Source of the DNA: an uncultured Candidatus Rokubacteria bacterium
Lineage (GTDB): Bacteria > Methylomirabilota > Methylomirabilia > Rokubacteriales > DASRDR01
DNA: 64,000 nt
Assembly: GCA_963805625.1 (NCBI GenBank)
Contig: CAWDVE010000010.1
Coordinates: 1,024,001-1,088,000, forward strand
Direction of reading: 5' to 3'
A model generated the notes under the pieces. The model did not search any database. It saw only the letters and a program-made list of their open reading frames with translations, and was not told the origin of the DNA. The position numbers were made by a program, and so were the translations under genes. Below, in pieces: positions 50,034-60,444 of this stretch (position 1 is the stretch's first letter; each line of letters begins with the position of its first letter).

Positions 50034-50045
50034 TTTCAAACTCCG

Positions 50046-50233
50046 GGGTCAGACCCCGATTTTGGCGTTCGGCACCGAGGTATCCAGTCTCACACTTGGG
50101 GGCCTGACCCCGGTTTTGGTTTCCCTCGGGGTCAGGCCTTGACTTCCCTACACTTCCCGACGCAACGCGAGATGCATGGAAATCAATTGCCTGACCCCGA
50201 GCGAGCCTCGATCAACGCCGGCGCTTCCGTATC
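50046..50233. repeat. Direct repeat copy 1 (REP/REPIN cluster plus duplicated 3' end of the 176-aa gene)
   Basis: Aligns with 50736-50924 at about 690-bp offset; contains GGGTCAGACCC palindrome and GGGGTCAGG...CCTGACCCC inverted arms. Confidence 0.92.
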
Positions 50234-50613
50234 ATCGCCGGCGTGACCGAGCTTGTGATGCCCACTCCGAGGCTCACCTCGAAGAGGGCGTTGCGTGCCG
50301 CGGACTGCTCGGCCACACCCGCGACGGTCTTCTGGTCCTCCGTAACCGCGATGAACCTGCCGTTGGCGTCGGGCCCGACGCGCTGGCCGCTGGTCACGGC
50401 GTCGCCGGCGAGGCATCTGTACGTGCCGATCACGCCGATGTTGCCCGAGTCCCCGTCACGGATGTCCTCGAGCGCCACGCCGTAGAGCACGTCGGTGTCT
50501 GCGGCGCAGGGCGCGATCCCGCCATCCGCGGAGAGCTTCACGGCGAAGCCCTGCTTGATTGTGGAGCCCGTCGTGTTCTTCTTCCGCTGCGTCAGGACCA
50601 GGAACTCTGCCAT
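50212..50613 (-). CDS. Phage capsid cement/decoration-like protein (DUF2190-like) with chimeric C-terminus
   Basis: GVALED..DG, V.G.....AG.AV..G..V..DA.G...., AGVA pattern; SD CAGGAG; last six codons lie inside repeat copy 1. Confidence 0.7.
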   Translation of the reverse strand: MAEFLVLTQRKKNTTGSTIKQGFAVKLSADGGIAPCAADTDVLYGVALEDIRDGDSGNIGVIGTYRCLAGDAVTSGQRVGPDANGRFIAVTEDQKTVAGVAEQSAARNALFEVSLGVGITSSVTPAMIRKRRR

Positions 50614-50655: not shown

Positions 50656-50735
50656 TCAGTGGGCCGCGCTCAGGTTCACGAAGGGCCCCTCGCGCTTCGC
50701 CTCACACGCGAGCTCGAAGACGGTGTCGTAGTCGA
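50656..50735 (-). pseudogene. 3' fragment of the phage gene preceding the cement gene (possibly protease/scaffold)
   Basis: LDYDTVFELACEAKREGPFVNLSAAH* cut exactly at the REP palindrome; identity inferred only from phage head gene order. Confidence 0.4.
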
Positions 50736-50924
50736 GGGTCAGACCCTGATTTTGGCGTTCGGCACCGAGGTATCCAGTCTCAAACTCGGGGTCTAGCCCC
50801 GGTTTTGGTTTCCCTCGGGGTCGGCCTTGACTTCCGTACACTTCGCGACACGCGACGCGAGATGCATGGAAATCAACGCCTGACCCCGAGCCGGGGCTTC
50901 GATCAGCGCAGGCGATTCCGCATC
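50736..50924. repeat. Direct repeat copy 2
   Basis: Same unit as 50046-50233; overlaps the stop and last six codons of the 50903-51433 gene. Confidence 0.92.
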
Positions 50925-51433
50925 GACACGTCGGCTTGTGACACAACCTGGGAACGGAACTGTTCCTGAGAGCGGAACTGTTCCTGGGATCTCGACGCCG
51001 AGGAGAACGTCGCCTCGATCAGGATGTCGTTGAGTGTCCCGGAGCAGGGGTCCAGCCGCAGCAACACGTCATCCTTGTCGTAGTCCCAAAACATGACCCC
51101 CGTCTCCCAGAAGACGTTCCGTGCGACCAGGCCGGTTTCGTCCATCGTGGACGGGCCATGGGCCACGGTCCCGGCTATGGCGTTCGTGACAGGAGTCCCG
51201 TCACCGTGCACGAGGAAGATGGCCGGTCTCGGCAGGTTGTAGAAGCTGCCCTCGAAGGTGAAGGCGTAGATCCGAGCCAGCTTCGGCTTGTCAGAGCCGG
51301 CGAACTTGAGCTGTTTGAGGAGGAAGCCGCTATCGCCCTTACCCGTCCCATACGACGACGAGCTCAGCGTCACGTCGTCCAGCTTTCGACCATACAGCTT
51401 GACACTCGATTCGCTCAGTAGGGTCTCTGCCAT
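50903..51433 (-). CDS. Hypothetical protein with (RSQEQF)n C-terminal tail; candidate YcaO/TfuA substrate
   Basis: Strong SD GGGAGG; globular-looking first ~145 aa, then SRSQEQFRSQEQFRSQVVSQADVSMRNRLR; last gene of the operon. Confidence 0.85.
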   Translation of the reverse strand: MAETLLSESSVKLYGRKLDDVTLSSSSYGTGKGDSGFLLKQLKFAGSDKPKLARIYAFTFEGSFYNLPRPAIFLVHGDGTPVTNAIAGTVAHGPSTMDETGLVARNVFWETGVMFWDYDKDDVLLRLDPCSGTLNDILIEATFSSASRSQEQFRSQEQFRSQVVSQADVSMRNRLR

Positions 51434-51469: not shown

Positions 51470-52744
51470 TCAGGGTGATCGCACAATTCCACCGCGGTCG
51501 CGGCGCGATGGGGCGAGCGACCTGGCGATGGGGCCGGGCCGAATCTCGCGCCAGGCGAAGCTCTCCCAGATGAGCCGCGCGAACCTGCCTCCCGTCAGGT
51601 AGCGGTCAACAGCTAACAATGCGTCGAGGACGTCAAAGTAATTGAGGTAGAGCGGCGACAGCCGTCGCCATACGTGCGCGAGCCCAGTTCCGAGATAGTC
51701 ACGCGTCTGCTGGAGCACCACCTTAAACGCTTCATGCCGGCCGTCGTAGGCAGCGGCGAACCGAGCCTCGATCTCTGGGTCGTCCACGGTGACTCCCGAG
51801 ACCCGGCCCGACGCGCGGTCCAGGTCGGCGCCGATGAGCCCAGCGTCGACGAGGAACTGCTGGTACACGTCAACGAAGATGTCGAAGATGGCACCCGTCA
51901 GCGGCTGAGACAGATCGTGGAGCGCGCACGAGATGTTCTCGACTCTGGAGACGTCTTCCACGTCAGACATGCACAGATCGTTGTCGGCGATCCGGATCTG
52001 GGCGGTCTCCGACAGTTCGCCGATACGGTTCAGCTCGCTCAGGTAATAGAGGTTGCCGGCGGAGCGTCGGAGAACGTGATCGAGCACCGCATGAAAGTGC
52101 AGGCATCCCACAAGGGCAACCAGGTCGGCGAAAGACTCGTGAAAACCGAAGAATTGATCGGTCCGAGCGTCCGGCGGGGGGGTTCCGACTTCCGAATAGA
52201 TCAGGAGGTGCCCCACCTCGTGGGCGAGCACGTCGAAGTTCTGCCAGTGGAGGCGCGGCACACCTCGCTCGTCCAGAGCATATCCAACCTCGATGAAGCC
52301 GAACCCGGACTGGGCATTCGCCCAGTCGATGTAGGGTATGAGCTCGAGGCGATTGTGGGTTCGTCGGAAATGCCACTCGATCCGGTGGCCAGCGTAGGCC
52401 TCCCAGATGTCCAGGACGCGCCGAACCGTCGCGTACATGTGTGCGGACCGGAATTCGGGACTGTCGACCTCCAGATGGTCGAAGTGCCCATCCGGGCCGG
52501 ACAAGGTGGGCGGAAAGGCGGGGCCGACGTATGGCGGCAAGTAGGGGAAATCGTAGGGACCGGGCTTTCCGATCGCGTCGACCACGTACATGCGCTCATC
52601 GGCGGGACCCGGCGCGATCGTCCCCGGTGCTCGAGCGATCCACACCCTCTCCGGCTCACGGAACGCCGCGAGCGCAGGGTCTTGCGCGAATAGCCAGAAT
52701 CGGGTGCCGCGTCCGAGGGTGATCGGGTCCCAGTGAGAGGTCAC
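51470..52744 (-). CDS. Cytoplasmic gluzincin metallopeptidase (M4/M36-like)
   Basis: AHEVGH...GFHESFAD zinc motif, WANA; no signal peptide; starts 3 nt after the TfuA stop. Confidence 0.8.
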   Translation of the reverse strand: MTSHWDPITLGRGTRFWLFAQDPALAAFREPERVWIARAPGTIAPGPADERMYVVDAIGKPGPYDFPYLPPYVGPAFPPTLSGPDGHFDHLEVDSPEFRSAHMYATVRRVLDIWEAYAGHRIEWHFRRTHNRLELIPYIDWANAQSGFGFIEVGYALDERGVPRLHWQNFDVLAHEVGHLLIYSEVGTPPPDARTDQFFGFHESFADLVALVGCLHFHAVLDHVLRRSAGNLYYLSELNRIGELSETAQIRIADNDLCMSDVEDVSRVENISCALHDLSQPLTGAIFDIFVDVYQQFLVDAGLIGADLDRASGRVSGVTVDDPEIEARFAAAYDGRHEAFKVVLQQTRDYLGTGLAHVWRRLSPLYLNYFDVLDALLAVDRYLTGGRFARLIWESFAWREIRPGPIARSLAPSRRDRGGIVRSP

Positions 52745-52747
52745 GCC

Positions 52748-54124
52748 TCACTCCTCGGGGTTGCGCGTGATACCGTCGGGCGTGTCGCCCCGCGTCACGT
52801 GGATCCATTCACGCCAGAGCGCCCGGTAGAACGACCCCGTGTCGGGGAAGCCGATGTCCACCGCGTGCTGCGCGATGTCATCGGGTACCGGGACGCCGAG
52901 GCGTTTCTCGAAGTACCAGAGCGTCAGCTCGAACTTCGTGCGCTCGTCGAGCTGATCCTCGACGGGGTCCGCTCCGGCCCGCGCGCGCCGCTTCATCCGA
53001 GCCCGCGCCGCGTAGCGCGTGTAGTCACCCCGGACGCGGAGATCATCCAGGAGATGGGCCTCGGCTCGTGGTCGGGCCAGCGCCTCCAGCTGCTCGATCC
53101 GCGCCTCCTCGTCGATCAGCCGGCCAAAGCTGGCGGGCGTGAGGTCGTTCTCTGCCAACCAGCGGTCGAGCGCTCCGCCGCCGAACAGGCCTAGGCGGCG
53201 CCGCAGTCTCGCAGCCGCCCGACGCCGAGCCTCATCGCTGGGCGCGAGCCCCTCCGACTCGCACTCTCGCAGCGTCGCCATCCGCATCAACCCCGCCCGT
53301 CTGGCCTCCACGTAGGCCCGGCCGTCCAGACGAAGCTCGTCGAGCAGCATTTCTGGCTCGAGCTCCAGTCGCTCGAAGTCCTGGGTGGCCCGGTTCCACA
53401 TCGCGCTCGCCTGGAACACGTATTCGACCCGAGCCGGCGGAGGATCGCCGACGAGAAAGTCCCTCATGGTCGTCAACATGGCAAGCGCGTCCAGCCGCTT
53501 CTGGTTGATAGACCCAGTCGGTAGCCAAGCGCGAAGCGCGTCGAGGTCCGTGACCGCGAGACCATGCTTGGCGCCGCAGGCCAGAAGCCGCTGGTACGAA
53601 CGATCGGGATAGAAGAGCTCCTTCGCGAGCCGGACGAGCATATCCCGGATGGTCGCCGAGACGACCCCCGCCTCCTGGGCTGATGCTAGCGTGCATCGGA
53701 TGTTGACCATGGCTTCGGAGAGGGGAACGAAGCCAACCTCGGCCGCACCGTGAACCACTGCGACCTCGTCGTCGTCTTCGAACGCCTCTGCCTGATAGGG
53801 CGCGAGGCTCCCGTCGCGATAGGCCTCGAAGATCCGGCCTATCCCCTTCATGCCGAATGCCGCGAGCTCGGCCGCTCGCAGAGCACCCATGCTTGCGCTC
53901 CCGAAGACATGGACACCCTGGGCCATCGCCCACAGAATTTCCTTGTGCCAGACGGATGGAACCTGCTGGAAATAGCCGTCGATGATGCCCAGGGCACGAG
54001 GTCGATGATGCGCGACCGCCCGATACACGTCTCCCTGCTGCGCCGGAGGCAGATAGACGGCATCCAGCACAGACCTCGCATCCGATACAGGGAGCGTGGG
54101 TCCGGTGAATACGCAGGTCGTCAT
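52748..54124 (-). CDS. tfuA: TfuA-like protein with about 200-aa C-terminal extension
   Basis: VFTGPTL, PPAQQGD, IIDGYF, VWHKEI, SMGALRAAEL, DDDEVAVVH, LSEAMVNIR motifs; ATGA overlap with ycaO. Confidence 0.95.
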   Translation of the reverse strand: MTTCVFTGPTLPVSDARSVLDAVYLPPAQQGDVYRAVAHHRPRALGIIDGYFQQVPSVWHKEILWAMAQGVHVFGSASMGALRAAELAAFGMKGIGRIFEAYRDGSLAPYQAEAFEDDDEVAVVHGAAEVGFVPLSEAMVNIRCTLASAQEAGVVSATIRDMLVRLAKELFYPDRSYQRLLACGAKHGLAVTDLDALRAWLPTGSINQKRLDALAMLTTMRDFLVGDPPPARVEYVFQASAMWNRATQDFERLELEPEMLLDELRLDGRAYVEARRAGLMRMATLRECESEGLAPSDEARRRAAARLRRRLGLFGGGALDRWLAENDLTPASFGRLIDEEARIEQLEALARPRAEAHLLDDLRVRGDYTRYAARARMKRRARAGADPVEDQLDERTKFELTLWYFEKRLGVPVPDDIAQHAVDIGFPDTGSFYRALWREWIHVTRGDTPDGITRNPEE

Positions 54125-55473
54125 GCCAGCCGACCACTCACGGCGCGGGCCCGCGGCCCTGGCACGTACTTGCCGCGCTCGCCGTCGTCGAGTCCCTCCA
54201 GGCCGGGGATTAGGACCCGAACGACCGGTATGCCCAGCTCCGGCTTGGTCAAGTTCACCGCGACGACTTGCCGAATCCCCACGGCGCGGAGATGTTCCAG
54301 AGCCCAGGTCACATCCTCGTCGAGACTATCCTGGTCGCGAGTGGGCACGTCGTGAAAGTCGCCGGTGGCCGTGTCGGCCGCCATCAGGCTGCGACATTCC
54401 TTCAGGCGTCGAGCGCGCTGCGCCGGCGTGTAGTCCTCTGCCCAGAAGTCGTCGCGGGAGCCAGCGATGTAGGTGGTGCGAGCCTGAGCGGCCTCGGTCA
54501 GCGCGCGGAGCAGAGCGATACCGCGCGCGGGATGGCAGCCGGCGGCGAACTCAGGGTCGGCGCCATCGTCGTCCCGCCCGAGCACCAGGCAGGTGAATGA
54601 CGCGATGCCGACATCGGAGGTGGTGTCCCACACCTTCACGGCAATGTCGGCGCGCGCGAACTGGTCGAGCACCCAGCGACATGCGTCGTCGTTGACAGTC
54701 TCGAGGTCCAGCGCGCGCCGTGACCTCCGGGGCGTGTGCTTCCACAACGCGCTCGCGTCGCGCTCGATCACCTCGTGTATCCCATGGCTGATGGCTTCGA
54801 GCATGTGGTTGCCTGATGCGAGCCCGTTCGTGTTAGCGAGAAAGCACCCGTGCGCGGGGCCACGAGGCATCGTGTAGTCCGTATGCACTAATTCGTATGG
54901 CACCCAGCACGGAGACTGGCTGATGAGATCTTCGCCCTCGATCCACAACAATGGCTCATCGTCGGTATAGGAGCTCGTCTTGGCGCGTGGGAGTGCGGCC
55001 ACGTCGATCAGGGGATGAGTGCGCCCGAGCTCGCGATACGTCCCTAGCTTGAGAGAGGAGGTGATGGTCTCGGCGTGAAAAGTCTCGACCGCTTCCATCA
55101 GCCCGGATGCCTTGGCCGCGGCCAGGTCCAGACCCTTGCCTTGGGACACGGCGATGGAACGAGAGTTCGGTCGGCAGACCATGACAACCGGGACACCGAT
55201 CCGATCGAGGCCGGTGATGTTGGCGACGCGGGTTATGCCCATCTGGGAGGCAAGCGGCCCGATTCGTTTCAGCGTATCCGCCGGGGCCACCGTTCGGTGG
55301 GTCCCGAGACGATGGGCCTTGACGGCTTCAGCGGTCGGTGTCGCGGCAGTTGAGCAGCCCCCTCCGAAGTGACCGGTCCCGTCCCCCTCCGCGCGCTGGG
55401 CACCACGAACGGCAGTCGTGGACGACCGGGGCAGGCCCGCTGCGGACTGGGGGCTCAAGTCAGGATCGTCCAT
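54121..55473 (-). CDS. ycaO: YcaO-family enzyme, TfuA-associated (thioamide-forming) type
   Basis: GITRVANITGLD, SQGKG, SGLMEAVE, NTNGLASGN, EVIERDA, RALTEAAQAR, VLIPGLE; lacks the terminal PxP motif of azoline-forming YcaOs. Confidence 0.95.
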   Translation of the reverse strand: MDDPDLSPQSAAGLPRSSTTAVRGAQRAEGDGTGHFGGGCSTAATPTAEAVKAHRLGTHRTVAPADTLKRIGPLASQMGITRVANITGLDRIGVPVVMVCRPNSRSIAVSQGKGLDLAAAKASGLMEAVETFHAETITSSLKLGTYRELGRTHPLIDVAALPRAKTSSYTDDEPLLWIEGEDLISQSPCWVPYELVHTDYTMPRGPAHGCFLANTNGLASGNHMLEAISHGIHEVIERDASALWKHTPRRSRRALDLETVNDDACRWVLDQFARADIAVKVWDTTSDVGIASFTCLVLGRDDDGADPEFAAGCHPARGIALLRALTEAAQARTTYIAGSRDDFWAEDYTPAQRARRLKECRSLMAADTATGDFHDVPTRDQDSLDEDVTWALEHLRAVGIRQVVAVNLTKPELGIPVVRVLIPGLEGLDDGERGKYVPGPRARAVSGRLA

Positions 55474-55486
55474 TGCGCCCCGCTCA

Positions 55487-58400
55487 CTAGGAGGTCGTCC
55501 CGGGTGCGGGAGTGGGAGCCAGCTCTTCAAGCAGCGCGCGTGCCTCGAGTAGGTCGACCGTGTCGAAACCCTCCCGGAACCACTCATAGACGGGGACCAG
55601 CAACCCACGTGCAGCAGCGTGTCGATCTCGTCGACGCTCGAGCATAGCCAGACTCATGGCCGCTCTCAGTTCGAGCGCTCGGGCCTTCTGCTGGCAGGCA
55701 ACTGACAGAGCCCTACGGAACTCGGCTTCCGCCTCGCTGACCCGCGGAGGCGACAACGCCAGGAGGGCCTCCCCTCGGCTCCGGTGGAGCTCCGCAGTCC
55801 AGTAGCACAGCCCCATCTGTTCCGTCTCGGCGAAAGCCTCGTCGAGCATGTCCAAGGCCAGCTCCGGCTGGCCTGCCTTGACGCACGCGGTGGCGAGCAT
55901 CTCCCTCAGGATCGGGAAGTCCTCGCCAGTGACCATGGCCTTCAGCTCGTCGAGTCCTTGACGCATATATTCGATGCCGCGCTCGGGCTCGCCCAGCTCG
56001 GCCAGCGCCCAGCCCTGGAACACCGTGCCCTTGACCCGATAGGCCGGGAATCCGTGGGCCTCCGAGTACTGGATGAGCTCATCGGCGCGGCCCTGGACGG
56101 TCCAGGCGTCGCGGCGATAGCGGTGCAGTAGCAGGCTCATGTCGAGCGCGTGTACGAGCGAGCCCGCATGCGCGAGACGGCGCGCCCACACCATCGCCTC
56201 CCCGCCCGCCGCGAGCGCCTGATCCGGGAACCCGAGCAGCCACAGCGAGAACGCGCGCTCCCCCGCCCCGCACACCTTCGGGTCGTGCCCGCCGTAGACC
56301 GCCACGTGGGCGCGGTAGTTTCCGGCGTCATACAGGCGCACGCCCTCGCGGACGTGCTCACAGCACTCTTCGTGCCGGCCCAGGTGGAACAGACTGGCCC
56401 AGAGACAGTGGTGGGCTTGAAGACTGAGGCCAGGGTCGCCCAGCCCGTCGGCCAGTGTCAGCAGTTTCTGCCCTATCTCGAGTCCCGTCTCGAAGCGTTC
56501 GGAGATACGCCATGCACCCCACATCGCGGTGAAGTGCTGGGGGGAGTCGGGGAGAGAAGAACAAAGCTCCAAGGCCCGGGCATAGGTCTGCGCCACCTCG
56601 ATCGTCCGCGGCCCTTTCGTGTTGATGAGCACGGGGCCCAGCGTGAGGAGCAGGTCGAGCTCCCCCCGTCGACGTTCGGTCGTTTCAGGAAGAGTGGCGA
56701 GGAGATCCAGCCCCTTCTTCAGGTGGGAGATCGCCTCCACGTTCGCTGACCGCTCACTCGCGCGTCGTCCGGCCAAGTGCCGATAGTGGAGTGCCTTCGG
56801 ACCGAGATGGGCCTCCGTGCAATGATGCGCGACCAGTTCAGGGCTCGCCTCCAGCGTCTCCGGAAACTGGGTCTCCAGCACCTCGGCGATCCGCGCATGG
56901 AGCGCCTGGCGCTGGGTGAGCAGGAGGCTTCCGTAGGCCGCGTCCTGGACGAGCGCGTGCTTGAACGAGTAGGTCGCACGGGGCGCTGTACCGTCGCACA
57001 GTATGAGCTGCGCGTCGACGAGCTCGTCGAGCGCCGCGTCCAGCTCGGTGTCTGGCATAGACGCTACCGCGGTTAGCAGCTCGTACGAGAATTGGCGTCC
57101 GATCGCGCTCCCGATCTGGGCAACCTTCGGGCCGGAAGCGAGCTGGTCAAGGCGCGCCATTAGTGAATCGTGGAGCGTCGCCGGGATCGCGAGAGGCGGA
57201 ATGGCGCCGGTGAGCTCGTACCGGTCTTCGTGTTCCTGGACCAGCCCGGATTCGAGCACCGTCTTCGTCAGCTCCTCGATGAATAGCGGCACGCCGTCCG
57301 TCTTGGTGACGATGTGCTGCAGGATCTGCTCGGGCAGGGACTTTCCGTTGGCCACCCGCCGCGCGATCTCGGCCGCTTCCGTCGGACTCAGCCGGTTCAA
57401 GGTGCAGCGCGTGACATGGGGCTGCCTGGGCCATTTTGGCGCGTAGCTCGGTCGGCAGGTGATGACCGCCAGCATCCGCTGGCTCCCGGCACGCTCCACG
57501 AGGACATCGAGCCACTCCTGCGAGGTGGGGTCGATCCAGTGCACGTCCTCGAACACCAGGAGCAAACCCGGCTCCTTGGCGAGACCCTCGACCAGGCTCT
57601 GAAGTGCGGCCAGTGTCTGTTCTCGTCGACGCTGCTGCGTCACGCCGACTGGCGCATAGCGATCTCCCGTCGAGACAGAGACGAGAGGGGCGAGCAACGG
57701 GACCATCGTCTCAACAGGGTGGCCGCACTGAGCAAGCAGCGCCTCGAGCCTCGCCAGCTTCCGCTCCATCGAGTCCTCACGCTCGAACTCGGCGAGGCGT
57801 TCCAATGCGGTACCGAGCGGGTAGAGTGCACTGTTTGCGTGATGTGGCGAACACTGGAGCAAGACGACTCGCTGCGGCTCTTGCGCGATCTGCTCTCCGA
57901 GATTCTGGATGATTCGAGACTTTCCGATCCCCGGCTCGCCGCTCAGCAGCACCACTTGCCCCTGACCGCTCATGGCATCGTTCCATCGCCGCATGAGAAG
58001 ACCGAATTCTTCCTTCCGGCCGACGAGCGGCGTGAGGCCGGCAGGGTGCGCGGCTTCGAATCGGCTCAGGGTCTCGTTCAGGTGCATGACCCGCCAAACC
58101 CGAATCGGGCGGGACATGCCCTTCAGGGTAGCGAAGCCAAGGTCCTCGCATACGAATCGGTCCCCGACCAGATGACGTGTTTCGTCGGTGATTACCACGG
58201 CGTTCGGGTCCGCCGCGGCCTGCAGGCGCGCCGCGAGATTCAGGGTCTCCCCGACCAGACCGGCCTCCTCCCCCGGGCGCCCGCCAGGAGAATCACCCGC
58301 GACCACCAAACCCGTCGCGATTCCCACGCGAACCGCCAGCTGGATGTTCGCAGCACCGATCGGCACCGGCCGAAGCTCCCTCACGGCTTCCACGATCCCA

Positions 58401-58876
58401 AGACCCGCCCGCACGGCACGCTCAGCATCATCTTCGTGCGCCATCGGATACCCGAAGTTCGCGAGAATGCCGTCACCGAGATACTGTGCGACGTGACCAC
58501 CAAACCGCCGGACTACGGAGGAGCAGGTGGTCAAATAGGTTCGGATGAGCCCCCGGAGGTCCTCTGGATCCAACTGGCCCGATATGGAAGTGGACCCGAC
58601 AAGGTCGGCAAACAGGACGGTCACACGTCTTCGCTCGGCCTGACGCGCCCCTGGGGAGACGCTGCGTGGATTCTGGGTAGCCGTGGACGGCGACCGATCC
58701 GGGGGCATGGGTGAGCCAAGGCCGTGAGCGAGCACGGCGCCACATTCCCCGCAGAACTCGAAGTGCGTTGGGTTCTTGAAGCCGCAGGCGGGACATGCGT
58801 TCCTCAGCAGCCGGCCACACCCGCCACAGAACCTCGACGAATCCGGATTGTCGAACGCACAGGCGGCGCACTTCAA
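55487..58876 (-). CDS. Double zinc ribbon / class III nucleotide cyclase / STAND-type AAA ATPase / TPR protein
   Basis: Four CxxC motifs, VLFADLVGS, YLGDG, NLAARLQ, Walker A GEPGIGKS, Walker B FEDVHW, FKHALVQD; TTG start with SD downstream of the promoter. Confidence 0.93.
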   Translation of the reverse strand: MKCAACAFDNPDSSRFCGGCGRLLRNACPACGFKNPTHFEFCGECGAVLAHGLGSPMPPDRSPSTATQNPRSVSPGARQAERRRVTVLFADLVGSTSISGQLDPEDLRGLIRTYLTTCSSVVRRFGGHVAQYLGDGILANFGYPMAHEDDAERAVRAGLGIVEAVRELRPVPIGAANIQLAVRVGIATGLVVAGDSPGGRPGEEAGLVGETLNLAARLQAAADPNAVVITDETRHLVGDRFVCEDLGFATLKGMSRPIRVWRVMHLNETLSRFEAAHPAGLTPLVGRKEEFGLLMRRWNDAMSGQGQVVLLSGEPGIGKSRIIQNLGEQIAQEPQRVVLLQCSPHHANSALYPLGTALERLAEFEREDSMERKLARLEALLAQCGHPVETMVPLLAPLVSVSTGDRYAPVGVTQQRRREQTLAALQSLVEGLAKEPGLLLVFEDVHWIDPTSQEWLDVLVERAGSQRMLAVITCRPSYAPKWPRQPHVTRCTLNRLSPTEAAEIARRVANGKSLPEQILQHIVTKTDGVPLFIEELTKTVLESGLVQEHEDRYELTGAIPPLAIPATLHDSLMARLDQLASGPKVAQIGSAIGRQFSYELLTAVASMPDTELDAALDELVDAQLILCDGTAPRATYSFKHALVQDAAYGSLLLTQRQALHARIAEVLETQFPETLEASPELVAHHCTEAHLGPKALHYRHLAGRRASERSANVEAISHLKKGLDLLATLPETTERRRGELDLLLTLGPVLINTKGPRTIEVAQTYARALELCSSLPDSPQHFTAMWGAWRISERFETGLEIGQKLLTLADGLGDPGLSLQAHHCLWASLFHLGRHEECCEHVREGVRLYDAGNYRAHVAVYGGHDPKVCGAGERAFSLWLLGFPDQALAAGGEAMVWARRLAHAGSLVHALDMSLLLHRYRRDAWTVQGRADELIQYSEAHGFPAYRVKGTVFQGWALAELGEPERGIEYMRQGLDELKAMVTGEDFPILREMLATACVKAGQPELALDMLDEAFAETEQMGLCYWTAELHRSRGEALLALSPPRVSEAEAEFRRALSVACQQKARALELRAAMSLAMLERRRDRHAAARGLLVPVYEWFREGFDTVDLLEARALLEELAPTPAPGTTS

Positions 58877-58924
58877 GCCGAACCCCCTTCTTCGGGCAGC
58901 CGGCCTACTGAGGAGGTGGCGGTG

Positions 58925-58953
58925 ACAGTAAGGCAGCCACGGCAGCTTGTCAA
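58925..58953 (-). promoter_or_regulatory. Sigma70 promoter of the cyclase-ycaO-tfuA operon
   Basis: TTGACA-N17-TACTGT on the minus strand. Confidence 0.75.
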
Positions 58954-59123
58954 GTCGACGTCTCACTATCGTCGCACGTTCCCATCGCCGTTTGGGATCA
59001 ATGGTGTCACGTCGACCCCGAAGACTGATGCGACTGCGACCGATGATTCATGAATCAAAAAGGCCTCCAATGCGATCCCTGCTCATCCCAGCAATCCGCC
59101 GCGCCAAGCCCCAGCGTATGAAA

Positions 59124-59139
59124 GTCAAAGTCTGACCCC
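59124..59139. repeat. Orphan REP arm at the island boundary
   Basis: GTCAAAGTCTGACCCC, identical to the core of the REPIN arm in 60555-60582; contains the stop codon of the HtpX-like gene. Confidence 0.8.
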
Positions 59140-60444
59140 CATCCGCTCGATGCGGGCGAGACGGCGCTTGAGCGTGGGGTGTAGGCCCATGAGTAGGCCC
59201 TCGCGCTCGGTGAACGTCCCGCGCTGGGCCCGCTGCCCGGTGGTCTCCACGATGAAAAGGTGCGCGACCCCCTCGCCGCCCGGGATCACCGCGCCGGTCT
59301 CTCCCAGGTGCTGGAGCCCGCGATAGAGCCCAGTCGGGTTGCGGGTGAGCTGGACCGCCGTCGCGTCGGCGAGGTAGCGCCGGCTCCGCCAGAGCAGGCC
59401 CACCGGTAGGCTCGCGAACAGTAGGAGGAAGCCCGTGGCGGCCGTGGCGAAGGCGAGCAGCGCGAGGAGCGGCGGGCAGATGCGGACGAGGATGCTCCCC
59501 AGCCGGCCGAAGTACTCGCGACCGAGTCCTGCCACCGGGTCGTCCCCGCCGCCCCCGGCCCCGAAGCGCTGCCGGTGCTCTCTGAGAAGCTGGATCAGCG
59601 CTCGGGCCCGTTCGGCCCGCGACTCCGGCGACTGGAATGTGCTCCGCAAGGGAAACGTGAACCACCGCCAGGCGACCCGCCGCGGAAGCCGCGCGAACGG
59701 AGCCAGGATGACGACGATCAGAAGCTCGAGCACATAGAGGAGCGAGTGAATCTGGGCCGCGCCTCGGAGATCCCCGTTCCCAATCGAGCCGATCAGATGA
59801 GCGAGGAGGCCCTCGGTCTCCTCGCGATCGAACTCGTCCAGGAGCCGCCGGCCGACGACGACGTAGCTCTCCGTCAGGTCCGTCCCGACGGCCGCGGCGT
59901 TCGCCACCTTGGCGTCGAGGAGACGCACCTCGGGTGCCGGGATCCCGGCGGCGATCGCCATCTCCTGGACCACGTTGACGAGCTGACGCTCCTCCAGGTC
60001 CCCGGCCACAGGTGGTCGGGCGCCGATCGCGAGGAGAGTGTGCCCCACCCCTGCCGCGCGCCACACCGACCGCACCGTCAGCCAGCACACGAGCGGGAGG
60101 AGGAAGCCGATCACCCAGACCGCGTCGCCGTCGCCCGGCAGGAGGCTCGGCAGCCGGCCCACGACCCCGAGCGGGGCCAGGCCCACGTCCCAGCTGGGGT
60201 GCGCGAGACCGGCTGTCGCAGGGCTCAGGAGCGCGAGCGCGCCGATGCCGAGGCAGAGCACCGCGGGAATGAAGACGAGGGCGAAGAGGACCAGGAACAC
60301 GTTGGCGACGAAGCCCACCGCGGACACGAAGCCGCACCCGCCCACGACCAGCGCGTAGGCGAGCGTCAGACGCCACGTCGCCCGGCGGTTCCGGGCCTGG
60401 AACTCGAAGAAAGGCGTGCGCTCGGTCGGGCGGGTCTCGGCCAT
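59125..60444 (-). CDS. HtpX/M48-like membrane protein with degenerate zinc site
   Basis: FFEFQARNRR, LVNVVQEMAIAAGIP, ANAAA, YLADATAVQLTRNP, HP..KR motifs; HEXXH position reads HLIGS. Confidence 0.85.
   Translation of the reverse strand: MAETRPTERTPFFEFQARNRRATWRLTLAYALVVGGCGFVSAVGFVANVFLVLFALVFIPAVLCLGIGALALLSPATAGLAHPSWDVGLAPLGVVGRLPSLLPGDGDAVWVIGFLLPLVCWLTVRSVWRAAGVGHTLLAIGARPPVAGDLEERQLVNVVQEMAIAAGIPAPEVRLLDAKVANAAAVGTDLTESYVVVGRRLLDEFDREETEGLLAHLIGSIGNGDLRGAAQIHSLLYVLELLIVVILAPFARLPRRVAWRWFTFPLRSTFQSPESRAERARALIQLLREHRQRFGAGGGGDDPVAGLGREYFGRLGSILVRICPPLLALLAFATAATGFLLLFASLPVGLLWRSRRYLADATAVQLTRNPTGLYRGLQHLGETGAVIPGGEGVAHLFIVETTGQRAQRGTFTEREGLLMGLHPTLKRRLARIERMGVRL

What the first reader, a model, noticed from the sequence alone, without database searches (positions are those of the whole stretch)
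50903..51433. Large precursor-like protein: folded leader plus hexad repeat core conserved at amino-acid level
Seen: the tail is SAS-RSQEQF-RSQEQF-RSQVVSQADVSMRNRLR (repeat at 50948-50992). The three RSQ units use different codons (AGA TCC, CGC TCT, CGT TCC), so all changes between them are synonymous. The preceding ~145 aa (ARIYAFTFEG..Y.LPRPAIFLVHG, WDYDK.D...RLD) look globular. Known: several RiPP classes use large folded leaders (nitrile-hydratase-like, Nif11) and multi-core repeats. Inference: a new leader-domain family with a variable repeated core.
Basis: partly seen in the sequence, partly recalled or inferred. Interest (0 to 1): 0.75.

Follow-up and report, generated by a model that had tools for sequence, protein, structure and literature searches.

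The report
Folded precursor with repeated peptide tail
This gene belongs to a widespread, unnamed bacterial protein family with a folded front part and a short repeated tail, and it sits in a fixed gene set whose enzymes likely put sulfur into the tail's backbone and likely cut it into several tiny peptides, an apparently unstudied pathway with a relative in the model bacterium Sinorhizobium meliloti.

Summary
The 176-aa gene and its repeat are real (0 of 5000 shuffles); only two full hexads plus RSQ repeat. It belongs to an unnamed family (605 clusters at 50% identity): a folded ~143-aa domain with no family or fold match, plus a disordered tail. 214 of 245 distinct tails are repeated (periods 4-9), kept at protein level (939 synonymous versus 255 non-synonymous differences). 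In 80 genome loci a thermolysin/fungalysin-like protease is present in 75, YcaO+TfuA in 55, a cyclase in 64. Best reading (0.55): multi-core thioamide-peptide precursor with its own protease. Against: a sister clade (S. meliloti included) has one conserved unrepeated tail; 16 rhizobial loci lack YcaO/TfuA nearby; the domain is as conserved as the enzymes; 17 of 54 long forms tested carry a phage-family module in one loop. So it may be a modified working protein (0.27). Not NHLP/Nif11. Ten paper searches found no description. The scan noted this system three times on other DNA.

The parts
50903..51433 (-). Precursor-like protein, 176 aa (P0001)
   Evidence: family; no Pfam/NCBIfam/PHROG/PADLOC hit
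51005..51433 (-). Conserved folded domain, residues 1-143, mostly beta strands plus a closing helix
   Evidence: model; invariant I55 V75 G79 W116 D122 G132 in 103 sequences; no fold match
51278..51382 (-). Variable loop region (residues ~18-52), where relatives carry long inserts, some matching phage virion-protein modules
50948..50992 (-). Repeat, 2.5 hexads (residues 148-162): candidate cores
50906..50947 (-). Basic end of the tail (follower-like); 242 of 245 family tails have Arg/Lys in the last 10 residues
51439..51444 (-). Ribosome-binding site GGAGGT
   Evidence: sequence
51470..52744 (-). Zinc protease of thermolysin/fungalysin (M4/M36)-like fold; HExxH and third-ligand Glu invariant; no signal-like N-terminus
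52748..54124 (-). TfuA with a ~230-aa C-terminal extension related to TIGR04500 peptide-maturation proteins
   Evidence: PF07812 E 3e-45; TIGR04500 in 22 of 45 homologous extensions but not the window's own at E<=0.01
54121..55608 (-). YcaO (longest ORF; true start uncertain); its stop overlaps the TfuA start
   Evidence: PF02624 E 6e-82; best NCBIfam TIGR03266 251 bits, under its 365 cut-off
55487..58966 (-). Zinc ribbon + class III nucleotide cyclase + AAA/STAND ATPase protein, first gene of the run
   Evidence: TIGR03903 583 bits, under its 706 cut-off

Best explanation
The gene encodes a conserved folded domain with a repeated tail and is likely the dedicated substrate of its gene set: YcaO and TfuA would replace backbone oxygens in the tail with sulfur, and the neighbouring thermolysin-like protease would cut the tail into several copies of a 4-9-residue peptide. 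Shown: the family, the fold prediction, protein-level conservation of the repeats, the fixed gene order, the protease fold with intact zinc ligands. Inferred from known chemistry: thioamide formation by YcaO+TfuA. Inferred from anatomy: the folded domain is the handle that the enzymes recognise, helped by the TfuA extension; the protease cuts once per unit, most likely before the bulky hydrophobic residue (thermolysin preference, recalled), which here would give an F-R-S-Q-E-Q-type hexapeptide. Weakest step (about 0.3 on its own): the released peptides act as a signal read by the co-encoded cyclase, whose short form carries TPR repeats, rather than as an antibiotic.
For: Protease gene directly upstream in 72 of 80 genome loci, YcaO+TfuA in 55, cyclase in 64; in metagenomes 48 of 52, TfuA 23 of 27, YcaO 18 of 20 loci with enough flank. 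Reciprocal test: of 12 strong protease loci in 401 sampled genomes, 11 have a family member directly behind and 1 ends at a contig edge. Conserved front, disordered hypervariable tail. 214 of 245 tails repeated; unit length 4-9 and 2-10 copies; 100 of 127 units hold exactly one Arg/Lys, 120 at least one bulky hydrophobic residue, none Cys. 939 synonymous vs 255 non-synonymous differences between neighbouring units; codon identity at the level of random codon use (557 vs 526 of 1410), so the units are old and held by selection. TfuA extension matches TIGR04500 in 22 of 45, the family of MirC, a partner protein required in rosaritide biosynthesis (PMC13097080, passages). Precedent: repeated precursor + YcaO + TfuA suffice for thiovarsolin B (PMC6511847, passages). 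GNAT genes recur in 16 and 12 loci, which would fit N-acetylation.
Against: No modification, cleavage or binding was shown. A sister clade (129 proteins, profile probability 98.4%) has one conserved unrepeated tail in the same five-gene set (8 of 14 fetched loci). 16 of 80 loci, all rhizobial, keep cyclase+protease+repeated precursor without YcaO/TfuA in the flanks, and one such genome gave no TfuA match at all (completeness not given). The domain is as conserved as the enzymes (mean distance 0.55-0.56 vs 0.51-0.58). 53 of 173 members carry long inserts in one region. No exporter is a constant neighbour and a crude scan found no ThiS-like sulfur carrier in 82 loci. The units share no residue that could be a universal modification site; the query's unit lacks the Gly that 108 of 127 units have.
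Confidence: 0.55

Rival explanations
1. The folded domain is the working part, for example a self-assembling or display protein or a phage-mimicking bait guarded by the STAND-cyclase. The tail is a regulatory tag that is thioamidated and trimmed on the intact protein, as McrA and ribosomal uL16 are, and no small-molecule product matters.
For: Domain as conserved as the enzymes. 17 of 54 long members tested match one phage-family module at E<=1e-5 inside the variable region, 14 of them families annotated head decoration, tail fibre or virion structural protein. A cement/decoration-family gene lies right behind the gene in the window and in an 81%-identical relative. Single conserved tail in the sister clade. 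YcaO acts on folded proteins (PMC13063428, passages). Weak GroES-like ring-protein hits top the structure search (Z 3.7 and 3.3).
Against: Tails change unit sequence and length freely yet keep exact copies within a protein, which fits multiple products better than one tag. The GroES likeness is below a meaningful Z (rmsd 7-8) and has no profile support (probability 0.3-0.4%). The cement-family neighbour occurs in 0 of 80 genome loci and 1 of 80 metagenome loci. No family member in viral contigs; no PADLOC hit for the gene, the protease, TfuA or YcaO.
Confidence: 0.27
2. The protein is a dedicated inhibitor or in-trans propeptide of the neighbouring protease (as in protealysin-type protease/inhibitor pairs, recalled), the repeated tail being a bait that thioamides make hard to cut.
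For: Protease and this gene are the most constant pair and stay together without YcaO/TfuA. The protease model matches mature M36/M4 enzymes and shows no long propeptide.
Against: Does not explain the cyclase, the TIGR04500-like extension or up to about 20 exact copies of a unit (L153). No match to any solved inhibitor.
Confidence: 0.06
3. The tail is a beta-solenoid or amyloid-type signalling motif that the STAND protein nucleates, as in NLR-associated amyloid signalling (recalled), or a pentapeptide-repeat fold.
For: A STAND protein is encoded in the same run. Some tails pass the Pfam pentapeptide cut-off (3 of 18 long members scanned).
Against: Unit length varies from 4 to 9. No tandem repeat in 0 of 50 neighbouring cyclase ORFs, so no matching motif on the receptor by this test. 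Tail predicted disordered. Many loci have a short cyclase-TPR protein without a STAND domain. The sister clade has no repeat.
Confidence: 0.06
4. The YcaO makes azolines or amidines on the Ser/Thr-rich tail rather than thioamides.
For: 102 of 127 units contain Ser or Thr; the cyclase resembles the TOMM-linked TIGR03903.
Against: TfuA is the adjacent gene; YcaO scores higher on the thioamidation model (251 bits) than on the SagD model (135 bits); no Cys in any unit and 25 units lack Ser/Thr; no E1-like partner or dehydrogenase among the recurring neighbours.
Confidence: 0.04

Closest known systems
Thiovarsolin pathway (VarA/VarY/VarT, Streptomyces varsoviensis; PMC6511847, passages read)
   Same: YcaO + TfuA beside a precursor with imperfect repeats; very short Arg-containing products; family varies from one to five repeats.
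   Different: There the paper reports no dedicated protease in the cluster. Here a folded ~143-aa domain, a dedicated M4/M36-like protease, a TfuA extension and a cyclase are constant; mainly Alphaproteobacteria; period 4-9.
Protein thioamidation: McrA by methanogen YcaO/TfuA (PMC5589413, listing and one passage) and uL16 by E. coli YcaO (PMC13063428, passages)
   Same: YcaO acting with a folded protein; the window's YcaO and TfuA score best on the McrA-thioamidation models, under cut-off.
   Different: Those substrates are housekeeping proteins encoded apart; here the candidate substrate has a hypervariable tail and its own protease.
NHLP and Nif11 precursors (PMC4603692, passages)
   Same: Long leader, variable core, YcaO nearby; the TOMM-linked kinase/cyclase model TIGR03903 matches the neighbour below cut-off.
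   Different: No sequence match to either leader; mostly beta domain; no double-Gly transporter among recurring neighbours; no Cys cores.
Rosaritide partner MirC, TIGR04500 (PMC13097080, passages)
   Same: SurA-like peptide-maturation domain tied to a RiPP enzyme.
   Different: Here only a weak match (22 of 45, best E 4e-9), fused to TfuA, and absent from the single-tail clade.
Thermolysin (M4) and fungalysin (M36) proteases
   Same: Fold (Foldseek E 1.7e-6, TM about 0.5) and HExxH...E ligands.
   Different: 9-14% identity, no Pfam hit, no signal-like N-terminus. The passages read in a RiPP protease review list M1, M16, M61, M103, M50 and M79; the words thermolysin and fungalysin do not occur in it (PMC10885120).

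Membership tests
YcaO-TfuA thioamidated RiPP (thioamitide / thiovarsolin type) | Adjacent ycaO and tfuA | tested here: met
   55 of 80 related loci
YcaO-TfuA thioamidated RiPP (thioamitide / thiovarsolin type) | Co-encoded precursor with conserved leader and variable core | tested here: met
   the leader is a folded domain, unlike the short known ones
YcaO-TfuA thioamidated RiPP (thioamitide / thiovarsolin type) | Backbone thioamide in the product | not testable with these tools
   needs mass spectrometry
YcaO-TfuA thioamidated RiPP (thioamitide / thiovarsolin type) | Core released as a small molecule | not testable with these tools
   protease present and intact; cleavage not shown
YcaO-TfuA thioamidated RiPP (thioamitide / thiovarsolin type) | Sulfur carrier (ThiS/ThiF) in the cluster | tested here: inconclusive
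   crude motif scan of 82 loci found none; varA/varY/varT alone suffice in a heterologous host
NHLP / Nif11 precursors | Leader homologous to nitrile hydratase alpha subunit or Nif11 | tested here: not met
   0 Pfam hits for the query; 0 such NCBIfam hits in 103 members; 0 relevant PDB sequence hits
Azole-containing peptides (TOMM/LAP) | Cys/Ser/Thr-rich core with E1-like partner and dehydrogenase | tested here: not met
   no Cys in 127 units; no such genes in the window run or among recurring neighbours scanned
M4/M36 gluzincins (neighbour) | HExxH plus downstream Glu on a thermolysin-like fold | tested here: met
M4/M36 gluzincins (neighbour) | Sequence membership of a Pfam peptidase family; signal peptide and propeptide | tested here: not met
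   0 Pfam/NCBIfam hits; 0 of 65 with a hydrophobic N-terminal stretch
GroES/Cpn10 fold (front domain) | Structural and profile similarity | tested here: inconclusive
   Z 3.7/3.3, rmsd 8.1/7.3, 91/72 aligned; profile probability 0.3-0.4% against a low-diversity GroES alignment
Pentapeptide-repeat proteins | Strict five-residue period over many coils | tested here: not met
   query period 6; family periods 4-9, 85 of 214 are 5
NLR-associated amyloid signalling | Matching motif on the receptor N-terminus | tested here: inconclusive
   no tandem repeat in 50 cyclase ORFs; single degenerate copies were not searched

The most novel reading that the evidence does not exclude
A self-contained signalling circuit of a new kind: a folded, probably assembling protein that can carry phage-virion-like modules acts as bait or display scaffold, its thioamide-tuned tail is released by a dedicated cytoplasmic thermolysin-like protease, and the released strain-specific peptides switch a co-encoded TPR/STAND nucleotide cyclase, joining RiPP chemistry to second-messenger or anti-phage signalling.
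Probability: 0.15. Interest if true: 0.9.

Novelty: new variant of a known kind. Interest (0 to 1): 0.64.

Why it matters
A published survey counts about 70% of 2,326 TfuA clusters in Proteobacteria, over 500 in Rhizobium, while all then-known products came from Actinobacteria (PMC8120280, parts 2-3 of 6 read). This family names a candidate substrate for one conserved part of them, too long to look like a usual short precursor, and supplies over a hundred predicted unit sequences. It would add a new folded leader type and a thermolysin-like maturation protease, and may link peptide modification to cyclic-nucleotide signalling. A relative lies in S. meliloti (UniRef Q92NT3), so it is testable in a model bacterium.

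Tried and rejected
Pfam, NCBIfam, PHROGs, PADLOC and PDB sequence searches for the protein: nothing. ESM Atlas: best 0.84, unnamed viral clusters, lead only; TfuA extension returned only TfuA clusters at 0.75-0.76. Fold searches: no match at E<=0.001 or Z>=5; absence does not show a new fold. GroES idea: not supported by profiles. Idea that codons were actively diversified against slippage: rejected, identity equals random expectation (z +1.8). Viral contigs: 48 pattern matches, none confirmed. Expression: one RNA run with share 0.05; its contigs do not cover the gene; uninformative. The long TfuA goes with repeated tails in 5 of 5 and the short TfuA with single tails in 8 of 8 sampled loci, but this is two lineages, and L153 (about 20 copies, no extension hit) and unrepeated main-clade tails break it, so it is not claimed as co-evolution. 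The distance comparison crashed before the cyclase rows; only protease, YcaO and TfuA were compared (Spearman 0.46-0.57, kin not independent). Two primary TfuA papers (PMC178172, PMC8084935) were not held. Rows dropped: two frameshifted tails (L006, L081); nine proteins without a usable tail; the repeat finder sometimes picks an imperfect register, so unit counts are approximate.

Full report
Observation. The ORF at 50903-51433 (-) encodes 176 aa behind a good ribosome-binding site. The repeat sits at 50948-50992 as stated. Codons differ synonymously within the three RSQ units and between the first two hexads; the third unit diverges after RSQ, so there are 2.5 hexads. None of 5000 shuffles of the tail reached its repeat score. 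An 81%-identical metagenome relative keeps the hexads exactly, and an 85-88%-identical gene set has a one-position variant of the unit in both copies.

Surroundings. On the same strand upstream lie, in order of transcription, a zinc-ribbon/cyclase/STAND protein, YcaO, TfuA and an unnamed 424-aa protein, with gaps of a few bases or overlaps. The 424-aa protein has invariant H175, E176, H179 and E203 in 65 homologues, and its model (pLDDT 88.5) matches M36 fungalysins and thermolysin (best E 1.7e-6, TM about 0.5). TfuA carries about 230 extra residues; 22 of 45 homologous extensions hit TIGR04500, though the window's own did not. That family includes MirC, needed for rosaritide biosynthesis (PMC13097080, passages). 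The run has lower G+C (0.658; the gene 0.606) than its flanks (0.71-0.72) and the genome (0.694), and the family was found in 3 of 251 genomes of the host phylum, the window's included, which suggests patchy, probably horizontal, spread (inference).

Family. No library names the protein. A profile finds 605 representatives at E<=0.001 and 477 at 1e-10 (only the best 150 were seen, and weak hits may ride on the repeats), 229 genome stretches (best 80 kept, mostly Alphaproteobacteria), 265 metagenome stretches (best 80 kept) and none in viral contigs. The model has a confident mostly beta domain to residue ~143 and a disordered tail. Fold searches gave no clear match; the weak top hits were GroES-like (Z 3.7, rmsd 8.1), without profile support.

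Tails. 214 of 245 distinct tails are repeated, with periods 4 (4), 5 (85), 6 (54), 7 (54), 8 (14), 9 (3). Of 127 units, 100 have exactly one Arg/Lys, 120 at least one bulky hydrophobic residue, 108 a Gly, none a Cys. In 74 repeated tails of 80 examined (query and its truncated paralogue included, two frameshifted tails dropped) neighbouring units differ at 939 synonymous and 255 non-synonymous codons and are identical at 624. Identical codons occur at the rate expected from local codon use (557 vs 526 of 1410): silent sites are saturated while the peptide is kept.

Linkage. Among the 80 genome loci the protease is present in 75 (72 directly upstream), YcaO+TfuA in 55, a related cyclase in 64, all four in 43. 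Of the 25 without the pair, 5 have under 2.7 kb upstream, 16 are rhizobial loci with cyclase-TPR, protease and repeated precursor only, and 4 are other cases; in one of these YcaO, TfuA and the protease lie 16-18 kb away on the same contig. Four of five such genomes searched have TfuA elsewhere; one Mesorhizobium genome gave none. Metagenome loci with enough flank agree (48 of 52, 23 of 27, 18 of 20). The reverse test started from the protease: 16 of 401 sampled genomes match; of 12 strong loci 11 have a family member directly behind (9 of 10 without the centre genome; the other is cut by a contig end), while 5 of 6 weak matches were fetched and none has one. These loci include kin, so the counts are not independent events.

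Results against a plain multi-core leader. (a) A sister clade, found beside a TfuA in Rhizobium, has 129 members, aligns with the family at 98.4% probability and ends in one conserved unrepeated tail. It keeps all five genes with a short TfuA in 8 of 14 fetched loci from 401 sampled genomes; 5 were repeat-type with long TfuA, 1 a fragment. S. meliloti has it. (b) The folded domain is as conserved as the enzymes. (c) 53 of 173 members have a long insert between the first strand and the conserved core; of 54 long members scanned, 17 match one phage-family module at E<=1e-5, 14 of them families annotated head decoration, tail fibre or virion structural protein; other inserts are unrelated beta-rich or helical-looking pieces (by eye). 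A throw-away leader would not obviously collect such modules. (d) No constant exporter and no sulfur carrier were found.

Mechanism. I commit to a dedicated precursor (0.55): the folded domain is recognised, YcaO+TfuA thioamidate the tail (inferred from thiovarsolin and McrA precedents), and the protease frees one peptide per unit (inferred), with single-tail forms as the one-core state, as in the thiovarsolin family, which runs from one to five repeats (PMC6511847, passages). Protease plus precursor plus cyclase looks like the core, thioamidation like tailoring that one lineage lost or borrows in trans. Because a cyclase is nearly always beside it, the short form bears TPR repeats, and CRP-type regulators recur in 9 loci, a signalling role is my preferred but weakest step; short peptides read by TPR receptors are a recalled analogy, not tested. 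The main rival (0.27) is a modified working protein; inhibitor, amyloid and azole readings are minor.

Known systems and novelty. It works like the thiovarsolin pathway but was not shown to be a thioamitide, and it fails membership of NHLP/Nif11, TOMM and pentapeptide-repeat families. Ten full-text searches returned no paper whose listing or read passages describe this gene set; I saw listings only, except passages of PMC6511847, PMC5589413, PMC13063428, PMC4603692, PMC13097080, PMC8939145, PMC8719888, PMC10885120 and parts 2-3 of 6 plus passages of PMC8120280. That survey counts these clusters only in bulk; the words repeat and cyclase do not occur in its main text, and its one held supplement lacks the motifs tried, but its large tables and figures were not seen and may list such clusters. 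Subscription journals are mostly outside the library. The scan's own notes recorded this system three times on other DNA; they are unchecked AI notes and not support. Verdict: real, a new variant of YcaO-TfuA peptide modification, interest 0.64.

Noticed in passing
window 50212-50613 (-), flanked by 50733-50891 and 50043-50204: Gene of the phage cement/head-decoration family (PF09956, E 7e-10) directly behind the precursor gene, between two ~160-nt copies (91% identical) of an element rich in inverted repeats that occurs only twice in the genome; a 65%-identical gene in the same place in metagenome locus L161.
   Followed up: partly
L083:10042-10674 (G000:C21:330377-330640): Truncated paralogue in the same genome: only the last third of the domain plus a tail of about five hexad copies, without protease, YcaO or TfuA nearby; it follows a primase-like ORF.
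   Followed up: partly
P0038, P0088, P0096, P0132, P0136, P0160, L077, L080 and others: Family members with 90-200-aa inserts in one region of the domain; one insert type matches phage head-decoration and tail-fibre families (best E 6e-20).
   Followed up: partly
L136:9413-10120; L160:9001-9696; L241-L247, L249: Single-tail sister clade in rhizobia, many with Cys-rich motifs at the N-terminus and in the second loop (possible metal site), in the same five-gene set with a short TfuA.
   Followed up: partly
L153:2357-3577 (-): Very divergent member with about 20 exact copies of one hexad and an acidic insert before the tail.
   Followed up: no
L017:10600-10929 and 13 other rhizobial loci: A conserved ~110-aa gene without Pfam hit directly follows the precursor in the loci that lack YcaO/TfuA.
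   Followed up: no
L006:10677-11267, L029:12469-13359, L005:10648-11340: Two GNAT acetyltransferase families (16 and 12 loci) and a CRP-type regulator (9 loci) recur downstream of the precursor.
   Followed up: partly
L048:2838-9578: Two different YcaO-TfuA pairs, one long and one short TfuA, in opposite orientation beside one precursor.
   Followed up: no
G000, whole genome: Dozens of cyclase/STAND paralogues and five GroES matches in the window's genome.
   Followed up: no
window 59125-60444 (-): HtpX-like M48 protease gene upstream of the cyclase on the same strand; found beside the gene set in only 1 of 80 related loci.
   Followed up: partly
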